A stretch of 64,000 nucleotides of DNA from Candidatus Moraniibacteriota bacterium (GTDB taxonomy: Bacteria; Patescibacteriota; Minisyncoccia; Moranbacterales; UBA1568). The DNA lies in the NCBI GenBank assembly GCA_013334575.1, contig JAAXXG010000004.1, forward strand, positions 18,464 to 82,463. The letters run 5' to 3'. Under the pieces are notes generated by a model. It saw only the letters and a list, made by a program, of their open reading frames with translations, was not told the origin of the DNA and did no database searches. Each line of letters opens with the position of its first letter. The stretch's first letter is position 1. Positions 10,593 through 33,452 of this stretch are shown here, piece by piece. Made by a program: the position numbers and the translations under genes.

Positions 10593-10599
10593 TCCGTTG

Positions 10600-10686
10600 A
10601 GGAAAGGGAGGGATTCGAACCCTCGAGGCCCTTGCGGGCCTGCCGCTTTTCGAGAGCGGTACCTTCAACCACTCGGTCACCTTTCC
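10600..10686 (-). tRNA. tRNA-Ser (anticodon CGA)
   Basis: On the minus strand: GGAAAGG/CCTTTCC 7-bp acceptor stem. D-arm ACC-GAGTGGTTGAA-GGT. Anticodon stem CCGCT/AGCGG with loop CTCGAAA (CGA). Long variable arm. T-arm AGGG-TTCGAAT-CCCT. Confidence 0.85.
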
Positions 10687-10740
10687 TATATGTCTAACAG
10701 TATATACTATTGTTCGAAATGATCCTCCCATTTCCGGTCA

Positions 10741-10854
10741 GGGATTCGCCCCGCATGCGCGGGGCGCCCGGCGAATGCCCGGGCGAACCCTCGAGGCCCT
10801 TGCGGGCCTGCCGCTTTTCGAGAGCGGTACCTTCAACCACTCGGTCACCTTTCC
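10741..10854 (-). repeat. tRNA-Ser-derived partial copy with a 38-nt two-hairpin insertion in the T-loop
   Basis: 71 nt identical to the 5' part of tRNA-Ser up to GGGTTCG. Then an insert (CCCGGGCATTCGCCGGGCG + CGCCCCGCGCATGCGGGGCG). Then AATCCC. The sequence after that does not restore the acceptor stem. Confidence 0.7.
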
Positions 10855-10869
10855 TATATTCAACTGACA

Positions 10870-10968
10870 ACCTCTACAACGAACGACCGGCGGCTACGGA
10901 CTCGCACAGGTGAGCGCCTTTCACCAGAGGCTGACCAGCCTTTGGCTGGCAACTACTCGGCTACCTTT
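10870..10968 (-). repeat. degenerate tRNA-like fragment (third copy) starting with the same GGAAAGGT acceptor/D-arm opening
   Basis: The minus-strand sequence begins GGAAAGGTAGCCGAGTAGTTG like tRNA-Ser but does not fold into a canonical cloverleaf. Confidence 0.4.
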
Positions 10969-11050
10969 CCTTCGTTTCCATAACGCCTCCAGTTGTTGTA
11001 CTATATTTAAAGGAATCGGGCAAATCGTCCGAACCGTGCGTTAAGACTGA

Positions 11051-26090: not shown

Positions 26091-26196
26091 CCGGGATGTC
26101 CGTAGACTGGACGAGAAGCGGCTCGATATATCGAAGGATGGATTTTTTCGGAAGCGGCGTCCGGACTTTCGTAGGGAGCCCTTTGTCGAAGTTTAT

Positions 26197-26225
26197 CGGG
26201 ACAGGGTATAGTGGTAGTACGTCTG
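26197..26225 (+). repeat. partial duplicate of the 5' end (acceptor, D-arm and start of anticodon stem) of tRNA-Pro
   Basis: cgggacagggtatagtggtagtacgtctg versus tRNA cgggacatagtatagtggtagtacgtctg. Confidence 0.6.
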
Positions 26226-26241
26226 GGGACAATAACGCTGT

Positions 26242-26312
26242 CGGGACATAGTATAGTGGTAGTACGTCTGCTTTGGGAGCAGATAGTCCCGGTCCGATTC
26301 CGGGTGTCCCGA
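26242..26312 (+). tRNA. tRNA-Pro (anticodon TGG)
   Basis: CGGGACA/TGTCCCG acceptor. D-arm GTAT-AGTGGTA-GTAC. Anticodon stem TCTGC/GCAGA with loop TTTGGGA. T-arm CCCGG-TCCGATT-CCGGG. The T-loop has C at position 55, which is unusual. Confidence 0.7.
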
Positions 26313-26360
26313 CAGCGGGATTGTCCGACGGTCTCCAGGGTCGTCGTCGCTCCGCAGGAG

Positions 26361-26426
26361 AGATAGTCCCGGTCCGCCCGAGCATTCGCCGGGCGTCCGG
26401 CGTATGCCGGACGATTCCGTGTATCC
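26361..26426 (+). repeat. tRNA-Pro-derived fragment (anticodon-stem 3' side to T-loop) interrupted by a two-hairpin insertion
   Basis: AGATAGTCCCGGTCCG, then CCCGAGCATTCGCCGGGCG, then TCCGGCGTATGCCGGACG, then ATTCCG. The first hairpin element is the near-exact reverse-strand equivalent of the insert at the tRNA-Ser locus. Confidence 0.6.
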
Positions 26427-26432
26427 TGACAA

Positions 26433-27227
26433 GTGCCCGAATCGATAATGACGGATAAGGGAATAAGAATAAAATCTATGGATTTCCTGCCGATTTCGTT
26501 GTTGAAGGTCGAGACGGTCGCCGACCGCACGAAGGCGTTCTTCTTCACGAAGCCGGATGGATTCTCGTTCCGCGCGGGGCAGTATGTGATGATCCGGATC
26601 CCGTCGGAGCGACTTGTCGAGCCGGATGTCCGTTCCGGAATGCGTCCGATATCGATCGCGTCGGCACCCGGTGATCGCGAACTGACGTTCGTCATGCGGG
26701 CGGGATCGACCGGATTCAAGAAGACGATGTGGAACCTGGTGCCGGGCGAGACGATAGGAGTCGGTGGGCCGCTCGGGAACGCGACCGTTCCGGATGAAGA
26801 GAGCCGTCCGATCGCGATACTGTGCGGTGGCGTAGGAATCGCGCCGGCACGCTCGATGATTCGCGATGCGGTTTCGAAAGGGGATCGGCGGAAGTTCGTG
26901 TTGTTCTCCTCGAATCGGACCCTTCGGGATGTTCCCTGCCACGAAGAGCTGCTCTCGACGGATCTTCCGGGATATTCGTATGTCTGGACGTTGACGAAAG
27001 CCGAGAATGAGCCGTCTCAAAAGGGTGAGGAACGCGGATACATTACGGCGGAGATGATCGAACGACACTTGCCAGAATGGCGGGAAGCACTCTATTATGT
27101 CATCGGTGCGCCGGCATTCGCCGATTCGATGAAGTCCGTTCTGCTCGGGATGGGCGTTGTGCCGGAAAATGTGCATATGGATCCGTTCGCGGGGCTTACC
27201 GGTTCGGGATCGAAGAATGTCGCGTAA
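26433..27227 (+). CDS. FNR-like oxidoreductase with FAD-binding FR-type and NAD(P)-binding domains
   Basis: RAGQYVMIRIP...RPISIASAP (FAD-binding), GGPLG, and an NAD-binding Rossmann segment. No ferredoxin cysteine cluster. Likely true start near 26478 (MDFLPISL). Confidence 0.7.
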   Translation: MPESIMTDKGIRIKSMDFLPISLLKVETVADRTKAFFFTKPDGFSFRAGQYVMIRIPSERLVEPDVRSGMRPISIASAPGDRELTFVMRAGSTGFKKTMWNLVPGETIGVGGPLGNATVPDEESRPIAILCGGVGIAPARSMIRDAVSKGDRRKFVLFSSNRTLRDVPCHEELLSTDLPGYSYVWTLTKAENEPSQKGEERGYITAEMIERHLPEWREALYYVIGAPAFADSMKSVLLGMGVVPENVHMDPFAGLTGSGSKNVA

Positions 27228-27247: not shown

Positions 27248-27319
27248 GCGGGTGTCGTATAGTGGCTATTATATCAGCCTTCCAAGCTGAGGATGTGGGT
27301 TCGATTCCCATCACCCGCT
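27248..27319 (+). tRNA. tRNA-Gly (anticodon TCC)
   Basis: GCGGGTG/CACCCGC acceptor. Anticodon stem TCAGC/GCTGA with loop CTTCCAA. T-arm GTGGG-TTCGATT-CCCAT. Confidence 0.85.
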
Positions 27320-27591
27320 CAGTGCAGACAAAAGAGGCTCCGTGAAGGAGTCTCTTTTGTCTGTTATGAGGCGATGGGAATCGAACGGGCAGAAGCGAGT
27401 CTCCGAGCGTCGATGAATGCGACCGGATAGGAAGCATTCAGCGCTGCCCCGGGCTACGAGGCACCGTCAGGTGCCGAGGACGAAATTCCCATCACCCGCT
27501 CAGTGCAGACAAAAGAGGCTCCGTGAAGGAGTCTCTTTTGTCTGTTATGAGGCGATGGGAATCGAACGGGCAGAAGCGAGTCTCCGAGCGT
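27304..27591 (+). repeat. tandem direct repeat: two 107-nt copies, each carrying the last 16 nt of tRNA-Gly from the T-loop onward plus 91 nt of flank, separated by a 74-nt hairpin-containing spacer
   Basis: Copies at 27304-27410 and 27485-27591, both beginning ATTCCCATCACCCGCTCA. Each contains a terminator-like hairpin GACAAAAGAGGCTCCGTGAAGGAGTCTCTTTTGTC. The spacer ends with GGCACCGTCAGGTGCC GAGGACGAA. Confidence 0.75.
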
Positions 27592-33354: not shown

Positions 33355-33425
33355 GCGGGTATAGTACAATGGTAGTACACTAGCTTCCCAAGCTAGGGAC
33401 ACGGGTTCGATTCCCGTTACCCGCT
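33355..33425 (+). tRNA. tRNA-Gly (anticodon CCC)
   Basis: GCGGGTA/TACCCGC acceptor. D-arm GTAC-AATGGTA-GTAC. Anticodon stem CTAGC/GCTAG with loop TTCCCAA. T-arm ACGGG-TTCGATT-CCCGT. Confidence 0.85.
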
Positions 33426-33452
33426 CAGAAAAAATGTTCACTCGTACGTCTT

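What the first reader, a model, noticed from the sequence alone, without database searches (positions are those of the whole stretch)
26197..26426. tRNA-Pro(TGG) flanked by a 5' partial duplicate and by a downstream fragment with the same T-loop two-hairpin insertion as the tRNA-Ser locus
Upstream of tRNA-Pro (26242-26312) is a 29-nt near-copy of its acceptor/D-arm (26197-26225). Downstream, a 22-nt copy of the anticodon-stem/variable/T-stem region (GGAGAGATAGTCCCGGTCCG, 26355-26376) is followed by an insert, then ATTCCG. The insert is CCCGAGCATTCGCCGGGCG plus hairpin TCCGGCGTATGCCGGACG. Its first hairpin differs by a single base from the tRNA-Ser-locus insert (CCCGGGCATTCGCCGGGCG). It sits at the identical position (after T-loop TCCG, before ATTCC) on the opposite genomic strand, that is, in the same orientation relative to the tRNA.

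A shared sequence-specific element at the same tRNA breakpoint in two unrelated tRNA loci argues for a site-specific process: a relic of T-loop-targeting integration, or a small non-autonomous element.
Basis: seen in the sequence. Interest (0 to 1): 0.7.

Follow-up and report, generated by a model that had tools for sequence, protein, structure and literature searches.

The report
Relics of a tRNA-invading endonuclease element
The tRNA fragments carrying a two-hairpin insert beside tRNA-Pro and tRNA-Ser are dead remnants of a small selfish DNA cassette, common in Patescibacteria, that sits in a loop of a tRNA gene, encodes a tiny GIY-YIG nuclease and supplies a replacement copy of the tRNA part it displaced; I could not find this arrangement described.

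Summary
The window holds two copies of a 37-nt two-hairpin module (H), at 26377-26413 (+) and 10747-10783 (-). Each sits after T-loop ...CG of a partial tRNA copy lying next to an intact tRNA of the same identity.

The module recurs in about 30 loci from Moranbacteria, other Patescibacteria and Smithella, always inside a tRNA-derived fragment. The layout is fixed: pseudo-tRNA from +1 to a loop ...CG, then H, then 4-8 nt of tRNA sequence, a spacer, and the complete tRNA.

In full-length versions the spacer is an 83-99 aa GIY-YIG (UPF0213-like) gene under purifying selection, which stops 0-6 nt before the tRNA. One of these, L136, sits in tRNA-Ser(CGA) and is the intact counterpart of the window's Ser relic. 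All 13 close homologues examined have this context, with insertion in a D-, anticodon or T-loop.

The hairpins covary strongly. They are 37/37 identical between genomes whose neighbouring DNA is about 70% identical.

Best reading: these are ORF-less relics of a homing-endonuclease-type cassette whose homology arms are the tRNA itself. The mechanism is inferred, not shown. Still unexplained are the hairpins' role, the domain-only nuclease, and the intact target site in the restored tRNA. I rate it a new variant of a known kind.

The parts
26242..26313 (+). Intact tRNA-Pro(TGG). Its T-loop is unusual (TCCGATT). The 5' leader cgctgt (26236-26241) pairs with the 3' trailer acagcg (26312-26317), extending the acceptor helix.
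   Evidence: ARAGORN; Rfam RF00005 at 65.5 bits; sequence.
26197..26229 (+). 5' pseudo-fragment of tRNA-Pro. Positions 1-29 match at 27/29, followed by GGGA (the 3' part of the anticodon loop). It lies 12 nt upstream of the intact gene.
   Evidence: Sequence; 18-mer scan. I read it as a heavily reduced relic of a separate loop-breakpoint event; this is inference.
26357..26376 (+). Pseudo-fragment of tRNA-Pro running from the 3' part of the anticodon loop to T-loop TCCG (about positions 36-57). It lies 43 nt downstream of the intact gene.
   Evidence: Sequence; alignment with L003, L109 and L114. In those relatives the full pseudo-copy (1-57) plus H lies upstream of the tRNA.
26377..26413 (+). 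Two-hairpin module H. H1 is 26377-26395 (its G-to-A change breaks one pair). H2 is 26396-26413 (6-bp stem, GUAU loop).
   Evidence: Covariance model R1 at 65.9 bits, E 4e-11; covariation analysis; predicted fold.
26414..26419 (+). Short post-insert homology ATTCCG, equal to tRNA-Pro positions 58-63. After it the sequence diverges.
   Evidence: Sequence. The same 4-8 nt feature occurs in every locus tabulated.
10599..10686 (-). Intact tRNA-Ser(CGA), followed by an intrinsic terminator.
   Evidence: ARAGORN; Rfam; terminator scan.
10784..10854 (-). Pseudo-tRNA-Ser running from +1 to T-loop TTCG, 71/71 identical to the intact gene.
   Evidence: It co-varies with the tRNA between the window and L109.
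10747..10783 (-). Two-hairpin module H. H1 is 10783..10765 and H2 is 10764..10747.
   Evidence: Pattern search; R1 at 64.8 bits; 37/37 identical to the L109 orthologue.
10687..10746 (-). AATCCCT (tRNA positions 58-64) plus a 53-nt spacer. The spacer looks like the collapsed remnant of the nuclease gene: an ATG is kept about 15 nt after AATCC, and a TTCGAA-containing tail remains.
   Evidence: Alignment with L109 (48/70 identical). In the full-length counterpart L136 an 87-aa GIY-YIG ORF occupies this position. Reading the spacer as an ORF remnant is inference.
10861..10970 (-). Probable older relic of a second element type. It is a tRNA-Ser 5' fragment (GGAAAGGTAGCCGAGTAGTTG) broken in the D-loop and followed by degenerate GC-rich hairpins.
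   Evidence: Comparison with L030 6300-6470, L076 1535-1665 (where a GIY-YIG ORF follows) and L028. The similarity is weak, so this is tentative.

Best explanation
The window features are ORF-less relics of a family of small cassettes that live inside tRNA genes of Patescibacteria (and Smithella).

Anatomy of a full cassette (shown):
- A resident tRNA 5' part runs from +1 to a loop position ending ...CG.
- A 37-nt pair of GC-rich hairpins (H) follows.
- Next come 4-8 nt that continue the tRNA loop and stem.
- About 20 nt further on, an 83-99 aa single-domain GIY-YIG (UPF0213-like) nuclease gene begins.
- A complete tRNA starts 0-6 nt after its stop codon.

Mechanism (inferred):
- The nuclease breaks the matching tRNA gene in a loop.
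- The break is repaired from a cassette-bearing copy. The pseudo-tRNA serves as the left homology arm and the restored tRNA as the right arm.
- This copies hairpins, nuclease gene and a replacement tRNA 5' part into the broken gene. The tRNA stays functional and a displaced 5' fragment is left upstream.
- Because both arms are tRNA sequence, the cassette can move between genomes that share nothing else. This would explain why homology starts at +1.
- The stop codon abuts the tRNA, so the nuclease gene and the tRNA are probably co-transcribed from the native tRNA promoter upstream of the pseudo-copy.

In the window:
- The nuclease gene has been deleted at both loci.
- At tRNA-Pro, additional breakpoint events moved or split the pseudo-copy.

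The hairpins are a selected cis-element of the cassette. My best guess is a nuclease-binding or operator site, or a 5'-UTR element. Their function is not established.
For: Anatomy across loci:
- The same layout is seen in about 30 loci (junction table).
- The pseudo-copy starts at +1 and ends at ...CG. It is 100% identical to the resident tRNA in most loci.
- The ATG lies 14-27 nt after H.

The nuclease:
- It matches GIY-YIG PF01541 at E 3e-17.
- Its nearest solved relatives are the UPF0213 proteins 1zg2 and 1ywl.
- Catalytic-type residues are invariant: Y3, Y5, Y16, G18, R26, H30, E50.
- dN/dS is 0.05-0.12.
- All 13 distinct homologues at roughly 60% identity or more lie between a pseudo-tRNA with hairpins and a complete tRNA. 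The tRNAs are Ser-CGA, Ser-GGA, Ser-TGA, Asp, Arg, Val, Trp and Gln.
- Two homologues at 54-55% identity do not have this context.

Links to the window:
- L136 is a full-length cassette in the T-loop of tRNA-Ser(CGA). It is the intact counterpart of the window's Ser relic.
- L109 is syntenic with the window and carries both relics.

Turnover and import:
- L131 and L132 are filled and empty versions of one tRNA-Gln(CTG) site.
- The short 3' homology in L131 (AATCCTGTC) matches another tRNA, so it travels with the element.
- In L123 and L080 the pseudo-copy and the complete tRNA differ in their stems, as expected if the complete copy was imported.

Hairpins under selection:
- 97.9% of cells are paired and 7 of 14 pairs show double-sided changes; 0 of 500 shuffles reach this.
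- H is 37/37 identical between genomes that are about 70% identical in flanking coding DNA and spacers.

Precedent: the T4/T6 GIY-YIG endonuclease SegB cuts within tRNA gene regions and drives conversion or amplification by homologous recombination (PMC2330249, PMC13096335).
Against: - No cleavage activity or target has been shown for any member.
- The protein is a bare ~85-aa catalytic domain with no DNA-binding domain. Even so, homologues at 60-80% identity sit at very different sites: T-loop TTCG^AAT, anticodon loop CTCG^AAA, D-loop CCCG^GTT.
- The restored tRNA keeps an intact copy of the presumed target. The usual self-immunity of homing elements is therefore missing.
- The model does not predict the constant 4-8 nt post-insert homology.
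- The model does not predict the strong conservation of H in ORF-less relics.
- How a cassette acquires the 5' part of a new tRNA species is unexplained.
- The L131/L132 polymorphism could be a deletion between direct repeats rather than an insertion.
- The window itself contains no nuclease gene.
Confidence: 0.7

Rival explanations
1. Scar of integrase-mediated (tyrosine or serine recombinase) integration and excision at a tRNA T-loop att site.
For: tRNA genes are classic att sites, and integration leaves partial tRNA copies (10.1101/2022.07.05.498093). One related locus (L127) has a Phage_integrase-family gene upstream.
Against: - The fragment and the intact gene are 42-300 nt apart, with no island between them.
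- The module is an insertion inside the loop, with tRNA sequence resuming after it. It is not a crossover boundary.
- Fragments are mostly 5' parts that start at +1.
- The only gene enclosed is a GIY-YIG nuclease.
- Insertion sites include D- and anticodon loops.
- The integrase-family gene in L127 lies outside the cassette and is absent from the other loci.
Confidence: 0.03
2. The pseudo-tRNA plus hairpins is a functional RNA in its own right. It could be a structured leader or decoy kept by the host, or a cofactor or guide for the nuclease. On this view the DNA arrangement is secondary to that RNA function.
For: - Compensatory changes occur in both hairpins.
- H is 37/37 conserved in ORF-less relics whose spacers have diverged.
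- The pseudo-copy is kept identical to the tRNA within each genome.
- The predicted fold is a three-way junction closed by the tRNA arm's own stem.
- The order pseudo-tRNA / hairpins / ORF resembles the guide / scaffold / ORF layout of OMEGA systems (own knowledge).
Against: - Hairpin covariation is equally expected for DNA hairpins or protein-binding palindromes.
- The module is near-palindromic as a whole and scores on both strands.
- The sense-strand departures from pairing include 3 A-C cells against 1 G-U.
- It occurs in both orientations relative to the tRNA (L076, L110, L111).
- There are no expression data.
- No Rfam family matches.
Confidence: 0.15
3. H is an independent REP/BIME-like palindromic mini-element that inserts into hairpin loops (tRNA loops included). 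Its association with the GIY-YIG gene would be coincidental or secondary.
For: - H is a doublet of two related hairpins in inverted orientation, like a REPIN/BIME.
- Most copies lack an ORF.
- In L088/L112 the loop of H2 is itself interrupted by a nested ~170-nt insertion.
- Other hairpin modules sit at the same loop positions (L119, L127, L130; window tRNA-Gly).
Against: - Every full module found lies in tRNA-derived sequence, and always next to a duplicated tRNA part.
- There are only two copies in 64 kb.
- The H-to-ATG distance is fixed at 14-27 nt in all ORF-bearing loci.
- Relic spacers keep the ORF's start and end (L013 vs L108/L030).
- No RAYT-type gene was seen.
Confidence: 0.1
4. Assembly artefact: a chimeric or collapsed repeat around tRNA genes.
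For: The sequences are short repeats close to each other in a metagenome-type assembly.
Against: Orthologous arrangements occur in at least 10 independent assemblies from different projects, with diverged spacers.
Confidence: 0.01

Closest known systems
Free-standing GIY-YIG homing endonucleases of T-even phages, especially SegB in the T4/T6 tRNA gene cluster (PMC2330249; PMC13096335)
   Same: - It is a GIY-YIG nuclease gene lodged among tRNA genes.
- It cuts within tRNA-gene DNA.
- It spreads or amplifies neighbouring sequence by break-induced homologous recombination and can create tandem duplications.
   Different: - SegB is about 220 aa and has a DNA-binding region. It is intergenic and leaves no pseudo-tRNA or hairpin module.
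- Here the protein is a bare ~85-aa domain of the UPF0213 branch.
- The cassette sits at the break site inside the gene, carries a replacement tRNA part and has a conserved double hairpin.
- It is chromosomal in cellular organisms; nothing was found in viral contigs.
Free-standing homing endonuclease genes of fungal mitochondria that insert into protein genes and bring a duplicate of the displaced gene end (e.g. Allomyces atp6/ORF360; own knowledge; cf. PMC5626475, PMC7487136)
   Same: The logic is the same. The endonuclease gene sits in an essential gene, function is preserved because the element supplies a replacement for the displaced part, and a pseudo-fragment of the original is left behind.
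   Different: - Those targets are protein-coding 3' ends in organelles. Here the target is a tRNA gene loop in bacteria, and the replaced part is mostly the 5' part.
- In the fungal cases the imported part differs in sequence and destroys the target. Here the restored tRNA is identical to the displaced part.
- The fungal elements have no hairpin module.
Partial tRNA genes left by integrase-mediated integration (attL/attR) (10.1101/2022.07.05.498093)
   Same: [quoted passage not shown] T-loop and anticodon-loop breakpoints are typical.
   Different: Those repeats flank kilobase-scale islands with an integrase, and homology simply ends at the crossover. Here the interval is 42-300 nt, no recombinase is enclosed, and tRNA sequence resumes after a 37-nt insert.
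UPF0213 / YhbQ-type stand-alone GIY-YIG proteins (PDB 1zg2, 1ywl)
   Same: They are the closest solved relatives by sequence (E 6e-6 and 1e-3). They have the same size and single-domain build.
   Different: No function or tRNA association is recorded for those proteins. More distant members of the present family (54-55% identity) are also not next to tRNAs. The tRNA-embedded clade is therefore a specialised branch.
REP / BIME / REPIN palindromic doublets (own knowledge)
   Same: H is a short GC-rich doublet of two related hairpins in inverted orientation. It is conserved in sequence, and non-autonomous copies outnumber the protein-coding ones.
   Different: REPINs are dispersed intergenically in tens to hundreds of copies and are tied to RAYT (HUH) transposases. 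H is found only inside tRNA-derived fragments and is tied to a GIY-YIG gene.
[quoted passage not shown]
   Same: Same phylum, and tRNA genes are interrupted in loops.
   Different: Those are self-splicing ribozymes of several hundred nt inside an otherwise complete tRNA. Here the insert is 37 nt with no ribozyme, the 3' exon is missing from the interrupted copy, and a separate intact gene does the work.

Membership tests
Homing endonuclease gene (free-standing, GIY-YIG type) | Encodes a GIY-YIG catalytic domain with intact active-site residues. | tested here: met
   This holds for the full-length relatives: PF01541 at E 3e-17, invariant Y, Y, G, R, H and E, and dN/dS of 0.05-0.12. The window copies themselves have lost the ORF.
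Homing endonuclease gene (free-standing, GIY-YIG type) | Site-specific cleavage of the allele that lacks the element. | not testable with these tools
   The only support is indirect: insertion always follows ...CG in a tRNA loop.
Homing endonuclease gene (free-standing, GIY-YIG type) | Presence/absence polymorphism at the same site in related genomes. | tested here: met
   L131 (filled) and L132 (empty) are versions of one tRNA-Gln(CTG) site. There are also full versus ORF-less versions at the same tRNA: L136 vs the window and L109, and L030/L108 vs L013/L073. Whether the polymorphism reflects gain or loss is unresolved.
Homing endonuclease gene (free-standing, GIY-YIG type) | Insertion destroys the recognition site, making the carrier immune. 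| tested here: not met
   The restored tRNA carries the same loop sequence as the displaced copy in all ORF-bearing loci.
Homing endonuclease gene (free-standing, GIY-YIG type) | A separate DNA-binding domain that gives a long recognition site. | tested here: not met
   The proteins are 83-99 aa and the GIY-YIG domain covers residues 1-71.
Integrase-generated att-site tRNA fragment | Partial and complete tRNA copies flank an integrated island that encodes a recombinase. | tested here: not met
   The interval is 12-53 nt in the window and about 280-340 nt in full-length loci. It holds only the GIY-YIG ORF.
tRNA intron (group I or archaeal bulge-helix-bulge type) | The insert interrupts an otherwise complete tRNA with both exons present, and has a recognisable intron fold. 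| tested here: not met
   Homology ends 4-8 nt after the insert, so there is no 3' acceptor strand. No Rfam intron match was found.
REP/BIME/REPIN elements | Palindromic hairpin doublet. | tested here: met
   H1 is roughly the reverse complement of H2, and the model hits both strands.
REP/BIME/REPIN elements | Many dispersed intergenic copies, and association with a RAYT transposase. | tested here: not met
   There are two copies in 64 kb, both in tRNA fragments. All other copies are also in tRNA fragments. RAYT genes were not searched for genome-wide.
UPF0213 (YhbQ-like) GIY-YIG proteins | Sequence similarity to the family's solved members, and the same single-domain size. | tested here: met
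   1zg2_A at E 6.2e-6 and 1ywl_A at E 9.8e-4. This applies to the relatives' ORFs.

The most novel reading that the evidence does not exclude
The pseudo-tRNA plus double hairpin may not be a passive scar. It could be the nuclease's specificity module: an RNA (or DNA hairpin) transcribed or exposed just upstream of the gene. Its tRNA-derived 5' part would pair with the matching tRNA gene, and its hairpins would dock the bare 85-aa GIY-YIG domain, so that cleavage falls exactly where the homology ends. That would be an RNA- or structure-guided homing system built on a GIY-YIG fold, analogous in layout to guide/scaffold/ORF in IscB and TnpB systems.

This reading would explain three things at once:
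- how near-identical domain-only proteins serve D-, anticodon and T-loop sites;
- why the pseudo-copy is kept identical to the tRNA;
- why H is conserved even in ORF-less copies, which would act as extra guides used in trans.
Probability: 0.08. Interest if true: 0.95.

Novelty: new variant of a known kind. Interest (0 to 1): 0.72.

Why it matters
- **Annotation.** It explains a recurrent oddity in Patescibacteria and other genomes: tRNA fragments, "split" tRNA hits and small GIY-YIG genes next to tRNAs.
- **A function for an orphan family.** It gives a testable function to a branch of the long-orphan UPF0213/YhbQ family.
- **A selfish-element strategy in bacteria.** The element occupies an essential, universally conserved gene while carrying its own repair patch. 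Using the tRNA itself as portable homology arms would allow spread between unrelated genomes.
- **Practical interest.** If the hairpin/pseudo-tRNA module helps to target a domain-only nuclease, it would be an extremely compact programmable nuclease.
- **Record of past invasions.** The stacked fragments upstream of tRNA-Ser, and the scars at tRNA-Gly, preserve successive invasions that can be used to study element turnover in uncultured lineages.

Tried and rejected
- **Known RNA families.** Rfam at gathering threshold over the whole window, and at E-value threshold over 26150-26480, found only tRNAs and one sub-threshold sRNA hit. Nothing matched the module.
- **Further copies in the window.** A covariance-model search with filters off found only the two known sites.
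- **Nuclease gene in the window.** tblastn with three cassette ORFs gave no significant hit.
- **The exact 19-mer as a search probe.** Most of the 107 genome hits were coding sequence of metallo-beta-lactamase-fold proteins (motif HTPGHSPGG). I rejected them by context and by model score of 39 bits or less.
- **Phage or viral carriage.** The pattern and the protein profile found nothing in viral contigs. In GenBank phages there were only weak hits at 38-42% identity.
- **Integrase/att reading.** Rejected on anatomy.
- **Intron reading (group I or bulge-helix-bulge).** Rejected because the 3' exon is missing and there is no intron fold.
- **An RNA-level origin (tRNA halves).** I considered this because the pseudo-copy starts at +1. 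I set it aside because no reverse transcriptase is present and the upstream boundary varies from 0 to 22 nt (L127, window Ser). Cross-species recombination within tRNA sequence explains that better.
- **Promoter scans.** One promoter-like site overlaps the Pro 5' fragment, and none was found at the Ser locus. This decides nothing.
- **Literature.** Seven searches found no description of this arrangement. The library is incomplete, so prior description cannot be excluded.
Full report
**1. The observation**

ARAGORN and Rfam find four tRNA genes in the window: Ser(CGA) at 10599-10686 (-), Pro(TGG) at 26242-26313 (+), Gly(TCC) at 27248-27320 (+) and Gly(CCC) at 33355-33426 (+).

- A 5' near-copy at 26197-26225 (27/29 identical), which continues as GGGA.
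- The intact gene.
- 43 nt further on, GGAGAGATAGTCCCGGTCCG at 26357-26376.
- A 37-nt insert: CCCGAGCATTCGCCGGGCG plus TCCGGCGTATGCCGGACG (26377-26413).
- ATTCCG, the tRNA's own continuation.

On the minus strand upstream of tRNA-Ser:
- A 71/71 identical copy of the tRNA from +1 to T-loop TTCG (10854..10784).
- CCCGGGCATTCGCCGGGCG plus CCCCGCGCATGCGGGGCG (10783..10747).
- AATCCCT, a 53-nt spacer and the intact gene.

The two inserts sit at the same tRNA position (57/58). The first hairpins differ by one base. The second hairpins differ by two compensatory pair changes.

**2. It is not chance and not an artefact**

- A covariance model of the module (R1) scores 65.9 and 64.8 bits at the two sites, against 16.7 bits for the next best hit in the window.
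- 95 unrelated loci that contain the exact 19-mer reach at most 39 bits. Most are coding sequence for the HTPGHSPGG motif of metallo-beta-lactamase-fold proteins.
- Orthologous copies occur in independent assemblies. L109 is syntenic with the window and carries both relics about 13 kb apart. L003, L114 and L116 carry the Pro relic.

**3. The family**

Exact-pattern scans of genome and metagenome contigs, followed by the model, recovered the full module in about 30 loci. These come mostly from Candidatus Moranbacteria and other Patescibacteria. In every case the module lies inside a tRNA-derived fragment next to an intact tRNA of the same identity: Pro, Ser-GGA, Ser-CGA, Ser-TGA, Tyr, Val, Leu and Thr.

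The junction table shows a fixed architecture:
- The pseudo-copy starts at tRNA +1 and ends at ...CG.
- The 37-nt module follows.
- Then come 4-8 nt that continue the tRNA (the rest of the loop plus 2-4 nt of the stem).
- Then unrelated sequence, and finally the intact tRNA.

The site is not always the T-loop. In L079, L085 and L088 the module sits in the anticodon loop of tRNA-Ser(CGA), at CTCG^AAATC. In L076, L110 and L111 it is inverted relative to the tRNA and attached to a 3' fragment.

**4. The gene**

In L030/L113, L108, L079 and L085 the interval between module and tRNA is about 280 nt. It encodes an 84-87 aa protein that matches the GIY-YIG domain at E 3e-17. Its nearest solved relatives are the UPF0213 proteins BH0048 and EF2693.

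A protein search found 188 relatives in Moranbacteria, Uhrbacteria, other Patescibacteria and Smithella. I looked up the genomic context of 13 distinct members at roughly 60% identity or more. Every one lies between a pseudo-tRNA with GC-rich hairpins and a complete tRNA. Examples:
- L117: the D-loop of tRNA-Asp (GCCCG^GTTAACAC). Hairpin 1 keeps the loop GCATTCG but has a fully covarying stem.
- L119, L122 and L129: anticodon arms of Ser-TGA, Ser-CGA and Val.
- L123 and L136: the T-loop of Ser-CGA.
- L127: Arg-TCT.
- L130: Trp.
- L131: Gln.

Further properties of the gene:
- The ATG lies 14-27 nt after the module, and the stop codon lies 0-6 nt before tRNA +1. There is no room for a separate tRNA promoter.
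- Active-site-type residues are invariant, and dN/dS is 0.05-0.12.
- Two more distant homologues (54-55% identity) are not next to tRNAs.
- Nothing related was found in viral contigs.

**5. The window copies are relics**

L136 comes from the same MAG as L030. It is a full-length cassette in the T-loop of tRNA-Ser(CGA), the same gene and site as the window's Ser locus.

In the window and in L109 the ORF is replaced by a 53-61 nt spacer. The spacer still has an ATG about 15 nt after AATCC. Similarly, the relic spacers in L013 and L073 keep the start (ATGTTTT) and the end (TTGG..AATAC) of the ORF seen in L108 and L030. No nuclease homologue is present in the window.

At tRNA-Pro the relatives have the standard order: pseudo-copy 1-57, H, ATTCC, a ~64-nt spacer and the tRNA. 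The window differs. It has a 5' fragment (1-29 plus GGGA) 12 nt upstream of the intact gene, and the fragment (36-57) plus H 43 nt downstream. This needs at least one more break-and-repair event in the anticodon loop. I cannot reconstruct it with confidence.

**6. Evidence for turnover and transfer**

- L131 and L132 are two related genomes with the same nuclease protein. They differ by the presence or absence of pseudo-Gln(CTG) 1-57, H, AATCCTGTC and a spacer at an otherwise identical site.
- The short sequence after H in L131 matches Ser-GGA and Gln-TTG rather than Gln-CTG. It therefore belongs to the element and was carried in.
- In L123 and L080 the pseudo-copy and the complete tRNA differ in their acceptor and T stems, as expected if the complete gene was imported from a diverged donor.
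- L111 and L060 show tandem arrays of units.

**7. The hairpins are selected**

- On ten distinct modules, 97.9% of cells pair and 7 of 14 pairs show changes on both sides. No shuffle reaches this.
- H is 37/37 identical between the window and L109 (Ser), and among L003, L109 and L114 (Pro). In the same comparisons the adjacent spacers are 69-88% identical and neighbouring coding DNA is 69-73% identical.
- Between L079 and L085, synonymous sites of the ORF are near saturation (pS 0.72), yet hairpin 1 is identical.
- The pseudo-copy also tracks its tRNA. The window and L109 differ at four tRNA-Ser positions, and each pseudo-copy carries its own genome's version.
- The module is near-palindromic as a whole, because hairpin 2 is roughly hairpin 1 inverted with loops ATTC and GAAT. 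It therefore scores on both strands.
- It can also fold as a three-way junction closed by the tRNA arm's stem.
- Whether it acts as DNA or as RNA cannot be decided from sequence.

**8. Mechanism**

Shown: the anatomy, the gene family and its exclusive tRNA context, selection on the ORF and on the hairpins, and the filled/empty and full/relic states.

Inferred: the nuclease breaks the cognate tRNA gene in a loop after CG. The break is repaired from a cassette-bearing copy. The pseudo-tRNA and the restored tRNA act as homology arms, which copies the cassette and regenerates a working tRNA. Because the arms are tRNA sequence, transfer between genomes with unrelated flanks is possible. That accounts for homology starting at +1. 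Co-transcription from the native tRNA promoter follows from the tight packing.

The closest precedents are:
- T-even phage SegB, a GIY-YIG enzyme that cuts tRNA-gene DNA and drives conversion and tandem amplification by homologous recombination (PMC2330249; PMC13096335).
- Fungal mitochondrial endonuclease genes that bring a replacement gene end (own knowledge).

**9. What does not fit**

- The protein is only a catalytic domain, yet close homologues occupy quite different sites.
- The restored tRNA keeps the presumed target.
- The 4-8 nt post-insert homology has no assigned role.
- The conservation of H in ORF-less relics has no assigned role either.

These points keep alive a more novel reading, in which the pseudo-tRNA/hairpin module contributes to targeting. 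I give that about 8%.

**10. Comparison with known systems, and novelty**

This is not an integrase att scar (describes that class), not an intron and not a dispersed REP-type repeat. It works most like a free-standing homing endonuclease gene with a gene-part rescue.

It fails two membership criteria of classical homing endonucleases: target disruption and a DNA-binding domain. It also adds a conserved double hairpin.

Seven literature searches found no description. I therefore rate it a new variant of a known kind, with the caveat that the searched library is incomplete.

**11. Verdict**

- The finding is real.
- The window features are inactive relics.
- The family they point to appears undescribed and is mechanistically intriguing.

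Interest: 0.72.

Noticed in passing
window 27304-27410 and 27485-27591 (+); 27370-27386: tRNA-Gly(TCC) at 27248-27320 is also scarred. A 107-nt perfect direct repeat starts exactly at T-loop position 57/58 (ATTCCCATCACCCGCTC plus terminator). A 17-nt inverted copy of the tRNA 3' end follows the terminator. Between the repeats lie the hairpins GAATGC..GCATTC and GGCACC..GGTGCC. A similar layout (terminator, inverted copy of the tRNA 3' end, a hairpin-bearing segment, then the ATTCCCATCACC fragment) is present in L109, L114 and L116.
   Followed up: partly
window 10861-10970 (-); L030 6300-6470; L076 1535-1901 and 2128-2190; L028 3540-3680: A second type of tRNA-interrupting element. It is a tRNA-Ser 5' fragment broken in the D-loop (GAGTGGTTG^), followed by a ~100-nt two-hairpin insert (CCCGCTCG..CGAGCGGG, then ..GATGTAGCGGAAAGG). 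In L076 a different small GIY-YIG ORF follows (about 42% identity to the first type). The window appears to hold a decayed copy upstream of the Ser pseudo-gene, which would give stacked relic layers.
   Followed up: partly
window 26295-26301; L131 650-660: The intact tRNA-Pro(TGG) has T-loop TCCGATT, with C where the near-universal U55 is expected. tRNA-Gln(CTG) in L131/L132 likewise has TCCGAAT. This could be an escape change at the nuclease target, or a lineage peculiarity.
   Followed up: no
window 26236-26241 with 26312-26317; L127 around 980-1100: The leader and trailer of tRNA-Pro are complementary (cgctgt / acagcg), which extends the acceptor helix to 13 bp. L127 tRNA-Arg has a ~20-nt leader/trailer complement, and that leader is duplicated with the pseudo-copy.
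   Followed up: no
window 10861-10875 (-); L109, L030, L028, L108, L136 upstream of the Ser pseudo-copies: Runs of heptamer-like repeats (GTTGTCA / GTTTACT) lie immediately upstream of pseudo-tRNA-Ser in several genomes. They may be a promoter or UP region, or element interior.
   Followed up: no
L088 4890-5065 (= L112): The loop of hairpin 2 is itself interrupted by a ~170-nt nested insertion (tccggcgaatg[...]atgccggacg). This suggests that hairpin loops are general insertion targets in these genomes.
   Followed up: no
L111 1199-1323; L060 1-158: Tandem arrays of units (tRNA 3' fragment, H, spacer). L060 alternates an intact T-loop junction with an H-bearing junction.
   Followed up: no
L030 7100-7330; L130 1193-1444: Additional small GIY-YIG genes lie just downstream of the complete tRNA in the same loci, so some tRNAs are flanked by nuclease genes on both sides.
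   Followed up: no
window 26183-26212 (+): A promoter-like site (TTGTCG, 18-nt spacer, TATAGT) takes its -10 hexamer from the D-arm sequence of the tRNA-Pro 5' fragment. The fragment could therefore be supplying a promoter for the intact gene.
   Followed up: no
L001-L107 (about 95 loci): The 19-mer CCCGGGCATTCGCCGGGCG recurs in many unrelated bacteria as coding sequence for the HTPGHSPGG motif of metallo-beta-lactamase-fold proteins. This is a source of false positives for any search with hairpin 1 alone.
   Followed up: yes
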